Notes: generated by a model not told the origin, from the sequence alone. 64,000 bases of DNA from the human T2T-CHM13v2.0 reference genome, Homo sapiens (GCF_009914755.1 NC_060936.1); one strand, 5' to 3'; counted from the stretch's first letter, positions 46,782 to 62,541 are shown. Numbers and translations are program-made.

Positions 46782-47247
46782 GGTAAAAATCTAACTATTC
46801 TGGATAAATCAAGTATTTGGTTCCTTATCTGCAAAGAAGTAAACTCTCTTAAAACCATTTCTAAGTTTCAATGTTATAAGATTATATAGATTTATATTGG
46901 TTCTGTAGCTGACATTACTATTTAACAGTAATAATTATGTCCTGTATAATACAAAACATTGTTTATATTGCAAGGCATTATAGAAACCTTTCATGTACAA
47001 CAGCTGCTCCAAGACACCCGCTAACCCACAGCTCCCAGGTCATTCTCTGTGGGCTCAAGCAGCCGCTCCAAGGCAGCCACAATTATTTTTTTTTCCTAGT
47101 AGTAAATTTACCCAGGAATTTTTTCACTGCGCCACCCTAGCAGCGAGAAGGGCAGATCTCCATATGTGTAAGTCCATCTTTTCTATCCTATTGAGTAATA
47201 GCCATAAAAATTGGATTTACTTATATTTTACTTAGTGAAAATGTCAC

Positions 47248-47366
47248 CTCTTTAGAATGATCTGGCTCTTCTTGTAACGCCAGTCGTGCCCATATGATGA
47301 CTCTTCCACAGTTTTTTCAGCTTCAGCAGGAGGCAAAGACTTCAACAGAAGGAGACAGTCTTCACT
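47248..47366 (-). pseudogene. Antisense pseudo-exon copy of KNTC1 exon 31
   Basis: 119 nt vs 120 nt; 5 substitutions and a 1-nt deletion by manual alignment; AG and GT retained on the minus strand. Confidence 0.92.
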
Positions 47367-47494
47367 CTATAAACAGGGTTTGAAAGGAAGAAAAAACAGC
47401 TGGTATTTGCAAAGGGCAGTGTGGCCTTACCTCTTTCTTTTCTATTTAAAGATAAAAATACATCATTTGGAAAAACATTATGGTTCAATGTTTT

Positions 47495-47788
47495 TTATAT
47501 ATTTTTTGAAACGGAGTCTCGCTCTATTGCCAAGGCTGGAGTCCAGCGATGCTATCTTGGCTCACTGCAACCTTTGCCTCTCGGTTTCAAGCAATTCTTG
47601 TGCCTCAGCCTCCCAAGTAACTGGGATTACAGGCACCCGCCACCACGCCTGGCTAATTTTTGTATTTTTAGTAGAGACGGTGTTTCACCATGTTGGCCAG
47701 GCTGGTCTCGAACTCTGACCTCAGGCAATCCACCCACCTCGGCTTCCCAAAGTGCTGGGATTACAGGTGTGAGCTACTGCACCTGGCC
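47495..47788 (-). mobile_element. AluS-like insertion inside the duplicate
   Basis: Full-length Alu with TSD TTATGGTT(C/T)AATGTTTT at 47478-47494 and 47789-47805. Confidence 0.9.
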
Positions 47789-48080
47789 TTATGGTTTAAT
47801 GTTTTAATAATCTGAAAATCCATTTCTGATGATAGCAACAATAAAATAAATTTAAAATATAATTCTAAGTAATGAAGATTTGTTTAATTCTTAGTCATTG
47901 CTATAATTATAGAATCGTATAAAAATAATGACATTTAAAAACACAATAAAAGAGAACCCACGCTCCATTCTAGAATTAAAGGGTCCTAAAACATATAAAA
48001 CTGAGTCTGGCCCAGGTGCAGTGGCTCACGCCTGTAATCCCAACACTTTGGGATGCCAAGGATACCTGGTATCCTCCCTG

Positions 48081-48282
48081 GTGATCCTCCTACCTCAGCC
48101 TCCCAAGTAGCTTGGGACTACAGATGTGCACCACCACATCTGGCTAATTTTTTTAATTATTTTTTTAGAAATGCAGTCTCTCTGTGTTGTCCACGCCGGT
48201 CTTGAACTCCTGAGCTCAAGCGATCTGCCTGCCTCGGCCTCCCAAAGTGCTGGGATTACAGGCGTGAGGTACCACGCCCAGT
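48081..48282 (-). mobile_element. AluJ-like element, remaining piece
   Basis: Resumes at GTGATCCTCCTACCTCAGCC where the other piece stops; shared flank TCATTTCTT at 46685 and 48285. Confidence 0.8.
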
Positions 48283-48809
48283 GCTCATTTCTTTAACACA
48301 AATATTTTTACCTTTGATCATAGTCAGATTCTTACCATATCTTCTAATTGCTCATTTCCCTTCATTGTTAATTTATTCTGATAAATAGATTTAAAGTAAG
48401 TATACCTCTAATTTTAAGTAATGATATTTTGGTGCCACATGGAAGTATATCTGTGGATTCAATTTCTGGAGGTGCAGTTGCTAAGGCAAAAGGTTATTCA
48501 TCCAAACTTGGCTTCCAAAGCACCTTTTCCAATAGAATGAGTAGGGGAGGGCCCATTTTCTCACTCATTCACCAACAGTATGTTATAGAACTTGTTTTTT
48601 TGCTAATCTGATGTATGCAAAAAAATTTTTTTTAAATATTACCACATGGATTTGATTTCCATTCTTAATTTTGGTTGAAATATTTACTTTCTCAAGGTGA
48701 AAAGCCTTTTGTTTTTCTCCTTACATCCTTGGTCCCTCTTTCTCTTGAGTTGTTTTTTTTTTTTTTAAAAAAAAAAACAGAGCTATTTCTGTGGTTTTAT
48801 TATTGTTGT

Positions 48810-59412: not shown

Positions 59413-60408
59413 GTAAGTACACTCTTCGAAGAGTCTTTTTTCTCTTTCATTTCTGGGGCAATATGGAAAGCTTAATGAGGAATTTATATTCTAGGAGGCT
59501 AATAGAGCTAGGTTTTTCCACTACATTTCTTTTGTTAGATATGATGTTAATAAGGTGTTCAGTTATTTATGAGAGTATTTATTCTTTTTGACATGGAGTT
59601 TCGCTCTTGCCGCCCAGGCTGGAGTGCAATGGCGCGATCTCGGCTCACCACAACCTCCGCCTTCTGGGTTCAAGTGATTTTCCTGCCTCAGCCTCCTGAG
59701 TAGCTGGGATTACAGGCATGCACTACCACGCTTGGCTAATTTTTTTTTTTGTATTTTTAGTAGAGATGGGGTTTCTCCATGTTGGTCAGGCTGGTTGGTC
59801 TTGAGCTCCCGACCTCAGGTGATCTGCCTGCCTCGGCCTCCCATAGTGTTGGGATTACAGGCGTGAGCTACCGCTCCTGGGCTTTTTATGAGAGTATTAA
59901 AGACACCAAATAGGCCAGGTGCGGTGGCTCACACCCGTAATCCCAGCACTTTGGGAGGCCAAGGTGGGTGGATCATGAGGTCAAGAGATCAAGACCATTC
60001 TGGCCAACATGGTAAAACTCCGTCTCTGCTAAAAATGCAAAAAAATTAGCAGGGTGTGGTGGCATGTGCCTGTAGTCCCAGCTACTTGGGAGGCTGAGGG
60101 AGGAGAATCACTTGAACCTGGGAGGCAGAGGTTGCAGTGAGCCGAGATTGCGCCACTGCACTGTAGCCTGGCGACAGAGGGAGACTCTGTCTCAAAAAAA
60201 AGACACCAAATAGTAAATTAAGAAGCTGTAGAAGAAAGAAGACAGGACTGTGGAATGATCAGAATATAAATCATGTTTTAATCTTTCATACAATTTAGTT
60301 TTTTGCTGCATTATTTAAATTTTTTTGCCACTTTGCTCTTATAAGCAAGTGATTTCTTGGTTTTCTGTGAGTTCTATAACAAAGAAATGTTCATATTGTC
60401 TTTTGCAG

Positions 60409-60543
60409 AGAGTGGTTAGATACATTCTCAAACAAGATGTCCCATCTTCTTTAGAAGATGCTTTAAAGGTAGCCCAAGCGTTTATGTTATCTGATGATGA
60501 GATCTACAGTCTAAGAATTATTGACCTGATTGATAGAGAACAG
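60409..60543 (+). CDS. KNTC1: KNTC1 exon 30
   Basis: AG/GT bounded; RVVRYILKQDVPSSLEDALKVAQAFMLSDDEIYSLRIIDLIDREQ. Confidence 0.92.
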
Positions 60544-60897
60544 GTTTGTAAGTTTTATGTTGTCATTTCATATGGCTTCTTTGTTTCTGTGTTGTTGTTG
60601 TTGTTTTTTGAGACAGGGTCTCGCTCCATTGCCCAGGCTGGAGTGCAGTGGCTGTGTTTCACCATGTTGGTCACGCTGGTCTCAAACTCTCAACCTGAAG
60701 TAATCCACCTGCCTTAGCCTCCCAAAGTGCTGAGATTACTGGTGTGAGCTACCATGCTTGGCCTGTTGTGTTTTTAAATGTCATTATTTTTATATGATTC
60801 TATAATCATAGCAATGCCTAGGAATTAACTCTTCAGTATCTAGGATCGTATTTTAAATTTATTTTATTGTTTGCTGTCATCAAAAATGGATTTTCAG

Positions 60898-61033
60898 CAT
60901 CAGGATGGATAGCTGATGCATGCAGGGCTTAAAATGTGCATGACAGGTTGATGGGTACAGCAAACCACCATGGCACATGTAACAAGCCTGCACTTCCTGC
61001 ACATGTACCCTGAAACTTAAAGTAAAATAAAAT
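60898..61033 (+). mobile_element. 5'-truncated primate L1 (L1PA-type 3' end)
   Basis: GGTACAGCAAACCACCATGGCACATG...AACTTAAAGTAAAATAAA; TSD AAAAATGGATTTTC(A/G)G at 60882 and 61034. Confidence 0.85.
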
Positions 61034-61185
61034 AAAAATGGATTTTCGGATTATTAAAACATTGAACCATAATCTGTTTTTCCAAATGATGTATTTTCAT
61101 CTTTAAATAGAAAAGAAAGAGGTAAGGCCACACCGTCCTTTGCAAATACCAGCTGTTTTTTCTTCCTTTCAAACCCTGTTTATAG

Positions 61186-61305
61186 GGTGAAGACTGTCTC
61201 CTTCTGTTGAAGTCTTTGCCTCCTGCTGAAGCTGAGAAAACTGCAGAAAGAGTCATCATATGGGCACGACTGGCATTACAAGAAGAGCCAGATCATTCTA
61301 AAGAG
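61186..61305 (+). CDS. KNTC1: KNTC1 exon 31 (120 nt, symmetric phase 0)
   Basis: TTTATAG/GGT ... GAG/GTGACA; [40 protein letters not shown]. Confidence 0.92.
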
Positions 61306-62541
61306 GTGACATTTTCACTAAGTAAAATATAAGTAAATCCAATTTTTATGGCTATTAATCAATAGGATAGAAAAGATGGACTTACACATATGAAGATCTG
61401 CTCTTCTCACTGCTAGGGTGGCCTAGTGAAAAAATTCCTGGGTAAATTTACTACTGGGAGAAAAAAAACAATTGTGGCTGCCTTGGAGCGGCTGCTTGAG
61501 CCCACAGAGAATGACCTGGGAGCTGTGGGTTAGCAGGTGTCTTGGAGCAGCTGTTGTACACGAAAGGTTTCTATAAAGCGTTGCAATATAAACAATGTTT
61601 TGTGTTATATAGGACATAATTATTGTCAAATAGTAATGTCAGCTACAAAACCAATATAAATCTATATAATCTTATAACATTGAAACTTAGAAATGGTTTT
61701 AAGAGAGTTTACTTTTTTGCAGATGAGGAATACTTGGTTTTTCCAGAATAGCTGGATTCTTACTGATTTTTAATTTTTTCTCTTTTTTTAAATATTATAT
61801 ATAGGAGATGAGGTCTTGGTATGTTGCCCAGGCTGGTCTTGAACTCCTGAGTTTAAGTTCTCTTCTAGCCTTAGCCTCCCAAGTAGCTGGGATTACAGGC
61901 ATGCACCACCATGCTCAATAGTTGGGTTTTTTTTTTCTTTTCTTTTCTTTTTTGAGACAAGAGTCTTGCTCTGTTGCTCAGGCTGGAGCACAGTGGCGCG
62001 ATCTTAACTCACTGCAACCTCTGCCTCTCAGGTTGAAGCGATTCTCCTGCCTCAGCTGGGAGTAGCTGGGATTACAGGCGTCCGCCACCACACCTGGCTA
62101 ATTTATGTATTTTTACTAGAGACGGGTTTCACCATGTTGGCCAGGCTGGTCTCAAACTCCTGACGCCAACTGATCTGCCTGCCTCGGCCTTCCAAAGTGC
62201 TAGGATTACAGGTGTGAGCCACCACACTTGGCCAATAGTTGGATTTTTAAACCCCTAAGGATAGATACCTCCCAACTTCTCTCAGTCCATTTCAGTAATG
62301 TTTTTTGCTGTTGGAAAATGAAGTTATTGTTGTTTTTAACACCTAATATTTGCTATGCAATAGGCATTAGGTTAAATAGCTACTTCTTGTTCATAACAAA
62401 GGTGTAAAGTAGTTCCTATTGTTGTCTCCTTATATATTAAGTTCAAAAACCAAAATATGAAAGTAAATGACTTTTTTCCAAGGTTGTTAGAAAGGGGCAG
62501 AACCTCAGCTCAAACTGTCTAATACCATAGTCTGTATTCTT

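What the first reader, a model, noticed from the sequence alone, without database searches (positions are those of the whole stretch)
46782..61763. KNTC1 carries an intronic antisense copy of its own exon 31: a possible long-range self-pairing RNA element
Seen: about 0.87 kb of non-repeat sequence spanning the exon 31 polypyrimidine tract, acceptor, the whole exon, donor and about 450 nt of downstream intron is present again in inverted orientation in intron 20, about 14 kb upstream in the same transcript. The exon portion differs by only 5 substitutions and 1 deletion in 120 nt. Established: long inverted repeats in pre-mRNA form dsRNA that can be ADAR-edited, promote back-splicing of enclosed exons and mask splice sites. 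Inference: unlike Alu pairs this duplex has a single specific partner and covers coding sequence. It could cause (i) in-frame skipping of exon 31 (40 aa), (ii) circRNAs from exons 21-30 (1117 nt if all are included), or (iii) A-to-I recoding in exon 31. Pairing needs intron 20 to be unspliced when exon 31 is transcribed, so it would act as a splicing-kinetics-dependent switch. It may equally be a neutral relic.
Basis: partly seen in the sequence, partly recalled or inferred. Interest (0 to 1): 0.85.

Follow-up and report, generated by a model that had tools for sequence, protein, structure and literature searches.

The report
Inverted exon-31 copy inside KNTC1 intron
KNTC1 carries an old, reversed, non-repeat copy of its exon 31 neighbourhood inside intron 20 that could pair with the real exon in the pre-mRNA, but nothing yet shows that it does anything, and it is most likely a neutral relic of DNA break repair.

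Summary
Window 46784-47946 is a reverse-complement copy of 60766-61772: the last 267 nt of intron 30, all of exon 31 and 467 nt of intron 31. With one retroelement removed from each arm, 839 positions align at 95.2% identity. These are the only two copies in the genome.

New findings:
- The copy lies inside an older Alu in intron 20, together with a 13-nt filler, a 61-nt orphan stretch and a reversed Alu fragment. It has no poly(A) and no target-site duplication, so it is a multi-piece templated insertion, not a retrocopy.
- The copied exon has lost its reading frame.
- The predicted RNA duplex is very strong (684 bp, -1171 kcal/mol, about three times any local Alu pair). It buries the branch-site region, acceptor, exon and donor of exon 31.
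- The arms are less diverged than the Alu that later landed in the copy would predict. This fits past gene conversion, or less likely selection for pairing.

No function is shown. All 12 RefSeq transcripts include exon 31. Ten literature searches found nothing on KNTC1 circRNAs from exons 21-30, editing, or exon 31 skipping.

Best reading: a neutral relic that gives at most low-level RNA by-products. It is a clean, uniquely mappable test case for long-range pre-mRNA pairing.

The parts
46784..47494 (-). Core of the inverted copy. It matches 61051-61772: the 3' end of intron 30, exon 31 and the 5' part of intron 31. In the KNTC1 pre-mRNA it reads as antisense to exon 31.
   Evidence: 708 aligned positions with 28 substitutions. 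Only two copies in the genome.
47248..47366 (-). Copy of exon 31 itself, 119 nt. It has 5 substitutions and a 1-nt deletion, so the reading frame is broken. The flanking acceptor and donor sequences are intact on the minus strand.
   Evidence: The translation switches frame after the deletion.
47495..47788 (-). Alu that inserted into the copy after the duplication. Its 17-nt target-site duplication lies at 47478-47494 and 47789-47805 (16 of 17 identical). The original has the single empty site at 61056-61072.
   Evidence: for the TSD. Masked as repeat 47485-47813. Best genomic relatives are 86-88% identical.
47806..47946 (-). Distal block of the copy, matching 60766-60897 in intron 30. It is cut off from the core by the Alu here and by the repeat piece in the original.
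   Evidence: 131 aligned positions, 12 substitutions (90.8% identity, K2P 0.10).
46771..46783 (.). 13-nt filler between the left half of the host Alu and the copy. It has no homology to the source locus.
   Evidence: junction read directly.
47947..48007 (.). 61-nt orphan stretch with no other match in the genome.
   Evidence: only the self match, 1 candidate; only the Alu part of the wider query matched elsewhere.
48008..48062 (+). Roughly 55-nt fragment of an Alu 5' end, in the opposite orientation to the host Alu. It is part of the inserted patch.
   Evidence: it maps ascending on reference Alus where the host half maps descending; 96-98% identical to many Alus. No hit to the Alu next to the source segment at E<=1e-5.
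46694..46770 (-). Left half of the host Alu that was split by the insertion. The left TSD TCATTTCTT is at 46685-46693.
48066..48284 (-). Right half of the host Alu. The right TSD TCATTTCTT is at 48285-48293. The two halves map to adjoining, non-overlapping parts of reference Alus.
   Evidence: The 9-of-9 TSD brackets the whole 1.6-kb structure.
60766..60897 (+). Original locus, distal part in intron 30. It starts right at the 5' end of a truncated Alu (60598-60764).
60898..61034 (+). High-copy repeat piece with an A-rich tail. From recall it looks like the 3' end of an L1. It inserted into the original after the duplication: TSD at 60883-60897 and 61035-61049 (14 of 15), with a single site in the copy.
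   Evidence: Masked 60914-61048. 3403 genomic candidates, best relatives 79-85% identical.
61051..61185 (+). Original, 3' end of intron 30 with the branch region, polypyrimidine tract and acceptor. 61137-61185 is a 49-nt perfect match to the copy.
61186..61305 (+). KNTC1 exon 31: 120 nt, phase 0, codons 908-947.
   Evidence: The peptide is present in PDB chain 7qpg_R.
61306..61772 (+). Original, first 467 nt of intron 31. An 82-nt perfect match (61276-61357) spans the donor.

Best explanation
This is an ancient intragenic inverted duplication, and most likely a neutral relic.

Origin. Tens of millions of years ago a DNA break inside an Alu in KNTC1 intron 20 was patched with several pieces. 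These were a 13-nt filler, about 0.85 kb copied in reverse from the exon 31 neighbourhood 14 kb downstream, a 61-nt stretch of unknown origin and a short reversed Alu fragment. This looks like templated insertion during break repair or replication template switching, not retrotransposition.

Later history. An Alu landed in the copy, a repeat piece landed in the original, and the copied exon lost its frame. The 0.7-kb core of the arms stayed more alike than their age predicts. The most likely reason is that the arms exchanged sequence by gene conversion while they were still nearly identical. This is inferred.

RNA level. The arms can form a very stable 684-bp duplex that would hide the acceptor, the donor and probably the branch site of exon 31, and would loop out exons 21-30. 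I expect this only in the minority of transcripts that still hold intron 20 when exon 31 is made, about 10 kb of transcription later. Any exon 31 skipping, exon 21-30 circles or A-to-I editing would then be low-level by-products rather than a selected switch. This too is inferred.
For: Shown:
- Inverted duplicate, 839 aligned nt at 95.2%, only two copies in the genome.
- Host Alu halves bracketed by a 9-of-9 TSD. They map to non-overlapping, adjoining coordinates in all 3 of the 4 reference Alus that matched both halves.
- No poly(A), no TSD around the insert, filler and orphan pieces present.
- Empty-site logic shows both retroelements arrived after the duplication.
- The copied exon is frameshifted.
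- Substitutions look neutral: 10 of 22 CpG-context sites changed against 30 of 817 others.
- Duplex energetics and coverage of the splice signals. Local folding of the exon region is unremarkable (z = -0.41).
- All 12 RefSeq transcripts include exon 31, and none has an exon in the copy.
- No Rfam family in 44000-64000. No annotated regulatory element there.

Slower-than-expected divergence:
- The Alu inside the copy sits 0.102 (all sites), 0.078 (non-CpG-prone columns) and 0.031 (transversions) from the centre of the window's 58 Alus, which is median age. The arms show about 0.019 per lineage at non-CpG sites. Binomial p is 0.002 to 5e-6.
- The isolated distal block differs at 12 of 131 positions, against 21 of 485 in the deep-intronic core (p = 0.046).
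Against: - Nothing here measures RNA, so 'low-level by-products' is a judgement from distance and splicing order, not data.
- The reduced divergence of the core is equally what selection for complementarity would produce.
- The test for conversion tracts was negative: longest perfect run 82 nt, simulated P = 0.26.
- The splice-site stretches show no preferential erosion of pairing. The 49-nt and 82-nt perfect runs sit exactly on the acceptor and donor. One might expect erosion if pairing were harmful.
- The Alu-age argument rests on a star-phylogeny distance that includes an unknown subfamily offset, and on the assumption that Alu and unique sequence mutate at similar non-CpG rates.
- RefSeq would not list rare isoforms, circles or editing.
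Confidence: 0.6

Rival explanations
1. One reading: a working long-range RNA switch. The intron 20 arm pairs with exon 31 in a meaningful share of transcripts. Depending on how fast intron 20 is removed, this causes in-frame skipping of exon 31 (40 aa), circular RNAs of exons 21-30, or ADAR recoding. Selection keeps the arms complementary.
For: - A 684-bp duplex at -1170.9 kcal/mol, with net stabilisation of -825 kcal/mol over the separately folded arms. Every exon 31 splice signal is inside it.
- A single partner genome-wide.
- The arms are 2-4 times less diverged than the Alu that interrupts the copy would predict.
- 17 of the 40 substitutions still give G-U pairs in the sense RNA.
- Published work in C. 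elegans shows that reverse-complementary matches promote both back-splicing and skipping of the enclosed exons (PMC8330042, abstract read).
Against: - No isoform, circle or editing evidence in RefSeq (0 of 12 transcripts) or in ten literature searches.
- The arms are 12.8-13.6 kb and ten exons apart, and intron 20 must survive about 10 kb of further transcription.
- 17 G-U of 40 is about what random transitions give.
- Each arm tolerated a 0.14-0.3 kb retroelement insertion and several indels.
- Gene conversion explains the slow divergence without any function.
- The element is confined to primates (inferred from its age), whereas KNTC1 is an old essential gene.
Confidence: 0.1
2. A non-adaptive but measurable dsRNA. 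The duplex forms often enough to be hyper-edited by ADAR and unwound by helicases. It gives detectable A>G clusters in both arms, including exon 31, and some exon 21-30 circles, with no fitness value.
For: - Same structural evidence as above.
- The exon adenosines at 61247 and 61275 face C in the predicted duplex. From recall, this is the context ADARs prefer.
- Editing at 61247 would change codon 928, while 61275 is a silent third position (codon arithmetic).
Against: - No data.
- From recall, editing of inverted repeats falls off steeply with arm distance.
- The same two positions are G in the copy, so reads from the intron 20 paralogue mis-mapped to exon 31 would mimic editing.
Confidence: 0.22
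3. Retrocopy, transposable-element family or assembly artefact. On this view the similarity reflects a repeat family, an RNA-mediated copy or a mis-assembly rather than a DNA-level duplication.
For: Both loci are surrounded by Alus, and 37% of the window is masked repeat (23,967 of 64,000 bases).
Against: - Only two copies in 3.1 Gb, and the arms are unmasked.
- The copy keeps intron-exon-intron continuity and has no poly(A) tail or TSD.
- The arms differ by 40 substitutions and 11 indels, and each carries its own private retroelement with a TSD. A mis-assembly would not produce this.
Confidence: 0.02

Closest known systems
Inverted repeats flanking circularised exons: inverted Alu pairs in human genes, and the long inverted repeats around mouse Sry (recalled literature). 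Reverse-complementary matches in C. elegans (PMC8330042, abstract read).
   Same: Two complementary arms sit in one pre-mRNA. The upstream arm is in the intron before exon 21 and the downstream arm begins in the intron after exon 30, so pairing would bring the exon 30 donor close to the exon 21 acceptor.
   Different: The arms are unique sequence with a single partner, 0.7-0.85 kb long and about 95% matched, against roughly 0.3 kb and 72-88% for local Alu pairs. The downstream arm runs on through a coding exon and both its splice sites. No back-splice product is documented.
Exon-intron duplexes that direct ADAR recoding: editing-site complementary sequences such as the one for the GRIA2 Q/R site (recalled).
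   Same: An intronic sequence complementary to a coding exon of the same transcript. Two exon adenosines lie opposite C.
   Different: Known complementary sequences are short and imperfect, lie in the neighbouring intron and are conserved. This one is 0.85 kb, 14 kb and ten exons upstream, evolutionarily young, and has no known edited site.
Long-range pre-mRNA structures that mask or loop out splice sites (conserved complementary regions in human genes, recalled).
   Same: Pairing would sequester the branch region, acceptor and donor of a cassette-sized, in-frame exon.
   Different: Those structures are typically tens of nucleotides long and supported by conservation or compensatory change. 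Here the exon is constitutive in RefSeq and no cross-species data could be examined.
Templated or complex insertions made during break repair or replication template switching (MMBIR/FoSTeS-type and polymerase-theta-type events, recalled).
   Same: Several pieces from different templates, filler nucleotides, inverted orientation, a template nearby in cis, no poly(A) and no target-site duplication.
   Different: An ancient, fixed event inside a gene, which happens to have copied an exon with its splice sites in antisense.
Palindromes and inverted segmental duplications kept alike by arm-to-arm gene conversion (such as sex-chromosome palindromes, recalled).
   Same: Inverted arms on one chromosome that look younger than the insertions they contain.
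   Different: The arms are about 1,000 times shorter, only 95% identical today and show no visible recent conversion tract.

Membership tests
Intronic inverted repeats that drive exon circularisation | Complementary arms in the two introns flanking the circularised exons, within one transcript | tested here: met
   The upstream arm is in intron 20. The downstream arm starts in intron 30 (60766-61185) and continues through exon 31 into intron 31.
Intronic inverted repeats that drive exon circularisation | Pairing across the exons is stronger than competing pairing within each intron | tested here: met
   The unique arms have no other partner anywhere in the genome. The duplex is -1171 kcal/mol against -285 to -390 for Alu pairs. 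The Alu embedded in the copy does have partners inside intron 20 (I14, I18).
Intronic inverted repeats that drive exon circularisation | An observed back-splice junction (exon 30 donor to exon 21 acceptor) | not testable with these tools
   No read data. Literature searches found no human KNTC1-hosted circRNA in main texts. Supplements were closed.
Exon-complementary sequence for ADAR recoding | Intronic sequence base-paired with the edited exon | tested here: met
   116 of 120 exon 31 positions are paired in the cofold.
Exon-complementary sequence for ADAR recoding | A-to-I editing observed at exon sites | not testable with these tools
   Searches for KNTC1 with 'A-to-I' gave 0 papers and with 'RNA editing' gave 1 irrelevant paper.
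Exon-complementary sequence for ADAR recoding | The complementary element lies close to the exon, usually in the adjacent intron | tested here: not met
   The arms are separated by 12.8-13.6 kb and ten exons.
Retrocopy or L1-mediated insertion | Poly(A) tail, target-site duplication around the insert, loss of introns | tested here: not met
   Intron-exon-intron continuity is kept. No A-tail at either junction. The host Alu halves map to non-overlapping coordinates, so there is no TSD.
Templated multi-piece insertion at a DNA break | Several unrelated pieces plus filler, no TSD, a template in cis | tested here: met
   A 13-nt filler, the 0.85-kb inverted copy, a 61-nt orphan and a reversed Alu fragment, all inside one Alu bracketed by a 9-of-9 TSD.
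Templated multi-piece insertion at a DNA break | Microhomology at the junctions | tested here: inconclusive
   The junctions are about 5% diverged and carry filler, so ancestral microhomology cannot be read.
Inverted repeats under concerted evolution (gene conversion) | Arms more alike than their age predicts | tested here: inconclusive
   The Alu inside the copy is significantly more diverged than the arms (p = 0.002 to 5e-6). The distal block against the deep-intronic core gives p = 0.046. No conversion tract was seen (P = 0.26).
Inverted repeats under concerted evolution (gene conversion) | Arms within a species group together rather than with their orthologues | not testable with these tools
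Conserved long-range RNA structure regulating splicing | Compensatory substitutions and conservation across species; regulated exon | not testable with these tools
   Only one species was available. Exon 31 is constitutive in 12 of 12 RefSeq transcripts.

The most novel reading that the evidence does not exclude
The arms are kept complementary by selection. On this reading, a primate-specific exon-antisense element in intron 20 acts as a kinetic sensor: when intron 20 removal lags, a 684-bp duplex hides exon 31 or recruits ADAR to it. This would tune the output of the spindle-checkpoint protein KNTC1/ROD. It would also show how an exon-complementary editing or splicing element can be born in one step by inverted duplication of an exon.
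Probability: 0.07. Interest if true: 0.8.

Novelty: new member of a known kind. Interest (0 to 1): 0.42.

Why it matters
KNTC1 encodes ROD, a subunit of the RZZ kinetochore complex needed for the spindle checkpoint (recalled). The exon 31 peptide is part of the construct in the solved complex, PDB 7qpg chain R.

1. Test case for RNA pairing. The element is a rare natural test object: a long, near-perfect intramolecular duplex made of unique sequence. Unlike Alu pairs, its pairing, editing and splicing effects can be read with uniquely mapped reads and removed with one deletion. It can show how far apart, and across how many co-transcriptionally spliced exons, two arms can still find each other.

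2. Practical caution. The copy differs from exon 31 at six positions. At 61247 and 61275 it carries G where the exon has A. Mis-mapped intron 20 reads, or rare gene conversion, could therefore be mistaken for RNA editing or for variants in exon 31.

3. Risk at the DNA level. The inverted arms could in principle mediate an inversion of exons 21-30. The longest perfect match is only 82 nt, which makes this unlikely.

4. Evolutionary interest. The event shows how break repair can place an antisense exon in an intron. This is a plausible route to new exon-complementary elements.

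Tried and rejected
- Other copies or a repeat family: whole-genome searches with the core and the distal block found only the two arms.
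- Source of the 61-nt orphan: no match beyond itself. The wider query matched elsewhere only in its Alu part (40 of 835 candidates scored).
- The reversed Alu fragment as a copy of the Alu next to the source segment: rejected. There was no hit between them at E<=1e-5, while many unrelated Alus match at 96-98%. Why the source-side breakpoint coincides with that Alu's 5' end stays unexplained.
- An embedded structured RNA gene, which would give a reason to keep the copy: Rfam found nothing in 44000-64000. The local fold of the exon region is ordinary.
- Recent conversion tracts: the longest perfect run, 82 nt, is not unusual (P = 0.26).
- Literature: KNTC1 with circRNA terms, 'inverted duplication', 'A-to-I', 'RNA editing', 'exon 31' and 'exon skipping', plus a general search. 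The one 'circKNTC1' hit is a goat study, seen in the listing only. In PMC6675086, PMC8436179 and PMC7457817 (passages read) KNTC1 appears as an mRNA or as a lncRNA name, not as a circRNA host.
Dating by a molecular clock is rough. With K2P 0.0497 and 1.0-2.2e-9 per site per year, my own arithmetic gives about 11-25 My. The 'T(all)' column printed used 0.0553 by mistake and should be ignored. The non-CpG column is correct. The distal block (K2P 0.10) and the age class of the inserted Alu point to roughly twice that.
- The labels 'AluS-like', 'AluJ-like host' and 'L1 3' end' come from my recall of those families, not from a call.

Full report
OBSERVATION.

An inverted match joins 46783-47494 to 61763-61056. 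It is 93.99% identical over 716 columns, with 31 mismatches and 5 gap openings (1074 bits). The repeat finder reports the same region as three abutting arms of 220, 174 and 164 nt at 96% complementarity. A second inverted block joins 47812-47946 to 60897-60766 (87.5%).

The two blocks are separated by an Alu in the copy and by a 137-nt repeat piece in the original. With these left out, the arms are 852 and 854 nt and align over 839 positions at 95.2% identity. There are 32 transitions, 8 transversions and 11 gap events covering 28 columns, giving K2P 0.0497. The true limits are 46784-47946 and 60766-61772.

In NM_014708.6, exon 20 is 46150-46211, exon 21 starts at 51774, exon 31 is 61186-61305, and exons 21-30 sum to 1117 nt.

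The arms are not masked repeats apart from the two insertions, and the T2T genome holds exactly two copies. In a repeat-masked self-comparison of the window, this pair scores 1050 bits against 215 for the next of 13 pairs. It is not a chance match and not a repeat family.

ANATOMY AND ORIGIN. The copy does not lie in plain intron. It lies inside an older Alu.
- That Alu's left part (46694-46770) and right part (about 48066-48284) are bracketed by a perfect 9-nt target-site duplication, TCATTTCTT, at 46685-46693 and 48285-48293.
- The two halves map to adjoining, non-overlapping coordinates of other Alus in the window. This held for all 3 of the 4 references that matched both halves. The host lost at most about 15-24 nt, and no target-site duplication was made around the insert.
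- Between the halves, in order, lie a 13-nt filler (46771-46783) and the inverted copy. Then come a 61-nt stretch with no other match in the genome (47947-48007), an Alu 5' fragment of about 55 nt oriented opposite to the host (48008-48062) and a few more bases.
- There is no A-tail, and the copy keeps intron-exon-intron continuity.

I read this as a multi-piece templated insertion at a DNA break, or a replication template switch, using a template 14 kb away in cis. It is not retrotransposition. The mechanism class is named from established knowledge, and the event itself is inferred from the junctions.

One oddity remains. The source-side breakpoint (60766) sits right at the 5' end of a truncated Alu (60598-60764), yet the Alu fragment in the patch is not a copy of it. 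There is no hit between them at E<=1e-5.

LATER HISTORY. Two insertions arrived after the duplication.
- The Alu at 47495-47788 has a 17-nt TSD (16 of 17 identical), and the matching site occurs once in the original.
- The repeat piece at 60898-61034 has a 15-nt TSD (14 of 15 identical), and the matching site occurs once in the copy.

The copied exon (47248-47366, minus strand) has lost its frame. Substitutions look like neutral decay: 10 of 22 CpG-context sites differ, against 30 of 817 others.

AGE, AND A DISCREPANCY. A clock on the whole alignment gives roughly 11-25 My. This is K2P 0.0497 with rates of 1.0-2.2e-9 per site per year, by my own arithmetic. The 'T(all)' column printed used a wrong K.

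The Alu that landed in the copy afterwards looks older than that.
- Its closest relatives in the genome are only 86-88% identical (40 of 5238 candidates scored). The least diverged Alu of the window reaches 90-93%.
- Its distance from the centre of the window's 58 Alus was computed from pairwise distances without building a consensus. It is 0.102 at all sites, 0.078 at non-CpG-prone columns and 0.031 for transversions. Those rank 34, 38 and 29 of 58, which is median age.
- The arms show only about 0.019 per lineage at non-CpG sites (half of 0.0379). I subtracted the smallest value in the window as a generous subfamily offset. The Alu still carries more change than the arms allow: binomial p = 0.002 to 5e-6 for non-CpG sites, and 0.03 to 2e-4 for transversions.
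- The repeat piece in the original likewise has no relative above 85% (40 of 3403 scored).
- The 131-nt distal block is cut off from the core by both insertions. It differs at 12 of 131 positions, against 28 of 708 in the core (p = 0.022) and 21 of 485 in deep-intronic core only (p = 0.046).

Together these suggest that the event is nearer 30-40 My old and that the 0.7-kb core diverged late or slowly. The simplest cause is gene conversion between the arms while they were nearly identical. The short distal block would have escaped this once the insertions isolated it. Selection for complementarity would leave the same trace. A search for conversion tracts was negative (longest perfect run 82 nt, P = 0.26). 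The evidence is suggestive, not decisive. It rests on assumed equal non-CpG rates in Alu and unique DNA.

RNA POTENTIAL. Both arms lie in the same primary transcript.
- Co-folding the core arms gives -1170.9 kcal/mol with 684 intermolecular pairs. The arms folded alone give -150.2 and -195.3.
- Paired positions are 48 of 48 in the branch/polypyrimidine/acceptor stretch, 116 of 120 in exon 31 and 9 of 9 at the donor.
- Perfect runs of 49 and 82 nt sit on the acceptor and donor.
- Local inverted Alu pairs reach only -285 to -390 kcal/mol.
- Of the 40 substitutions, 17 leave a G-U pair and 23 a mismatch in the sense RNA, as expected by chance.
- The geometry would loop out exons 21-30 and bury exon 31. 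The possible products are therefore exon 31 skipping (in frame, codons 908-947), exon 30-to-21 back-splicing, skipping of the looped exons (out of frame, since 1117 or 1237 nt is not a multiple of 3) and ADAR editing.
- Reverse-complementary matches promoting both back-splicing and skipping of the enclosed exons are documented in C. elegans (PMC8330042, abstract read).
- Exon adenosines 61247 and 61275 face C in the duplex.

EVIDENCE ON FUNCTION. There is none.
- All 12 RefSeq transcripts keep exon 31, and none uses the copy.
- Rfam finds nothing in 44000-64000, and no regulatory feature is annotated there.
- All ten literature searches came back empty for this element. This covers KNTC1-hosted circRNAs in human, editing, and exon 31 skipping (passages). 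Supplementary tables, where circRNA and editing catalogues live, were closed.
- For pairing, intron 20 must persist while about 10 kb more is transcribed (exon 21 to the end of the downstream arm). From recalled elongation and splicing rates this is a few minutes, which is plausible only for a fraction of molecules.

VERDICT. This is a real, unique and old intragenic inverted duplication. It was made by a complex templated insertion into an Alu, and it is most likely neutral (confidence 0.6). A detectable but non-adaptive dsRNA effect is quite possible (0.22). A selected switch is unlikely but not excluded (0.1 as a rival; 0.07 in its boldest form). It belongs with known non-Alu inverted repeats in pre-mRNAs. 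Its unusual trait is that one arm is a coding exon with both splice sites.

It works like an RCM/ECS-type element on paper. Membership in the functional families cannot be claimed, because their defining read-outs (a back-splice junction, edited sites, compensatory evolution) could not be tested. The proximity feature of editing-complementary sequences was tested and is not met.

Noticed in passing
window 55179-55455 and 55653-55929 (KNTC1 intron 24): A tight inverted Alu pair: 277-nt arms, 80% complementary, only 197 nt apart, duplex -390 kcal/mol. This is the classic layout of a hyper-edited Alu hairpin.
   Followed up: partly
window 22016-22182 and 22798-22964 (KNTC1 intron 4): An unmasked direct repeat of 167 nt at 89.8% identity. 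It is the second strongest non-masked self-match of the window. Its nature is not determined.
   Followed up: no
window 1110-1210 (RSRC2 coding exon 1026-1229): A 30-nt-offset tandem self-match (71 nt, 86%) inside a coding exon. It is probably the repetitive Arg/Ser-rich coding region.
   Followed up: no
window 10407-10498: RSRC2 (minus strand) and KNTC1 (plus strand) start head to head about 90 nt apart according to the supplied annotation. This suggests a shared bidirectional promoter.
   Followed up: no
window 60598-60764 (intron 30): A truncated Alu of 167 nt with an internal deletion. Its 5' end coincides to within 1-2 nt with the source-side breakpoint of the duplication. The coincidence is unexplained.
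   Followed up: partly
window 47947-48007: A 61-nt stretch inside the inserted patch with no other match in the human reference. Its template was either lost, has diverged beyond recognition, or lies in a closed region.
   Followed up: yes
window 1-64000: Alu density is very high: 58 near-full-length Alus in 64 kb and 37% masked repeat. Many competing inverted Alu pairs therefore exist around exons 19-32 (304 inverted pairs in 45000-63000).
   Followed up: partly
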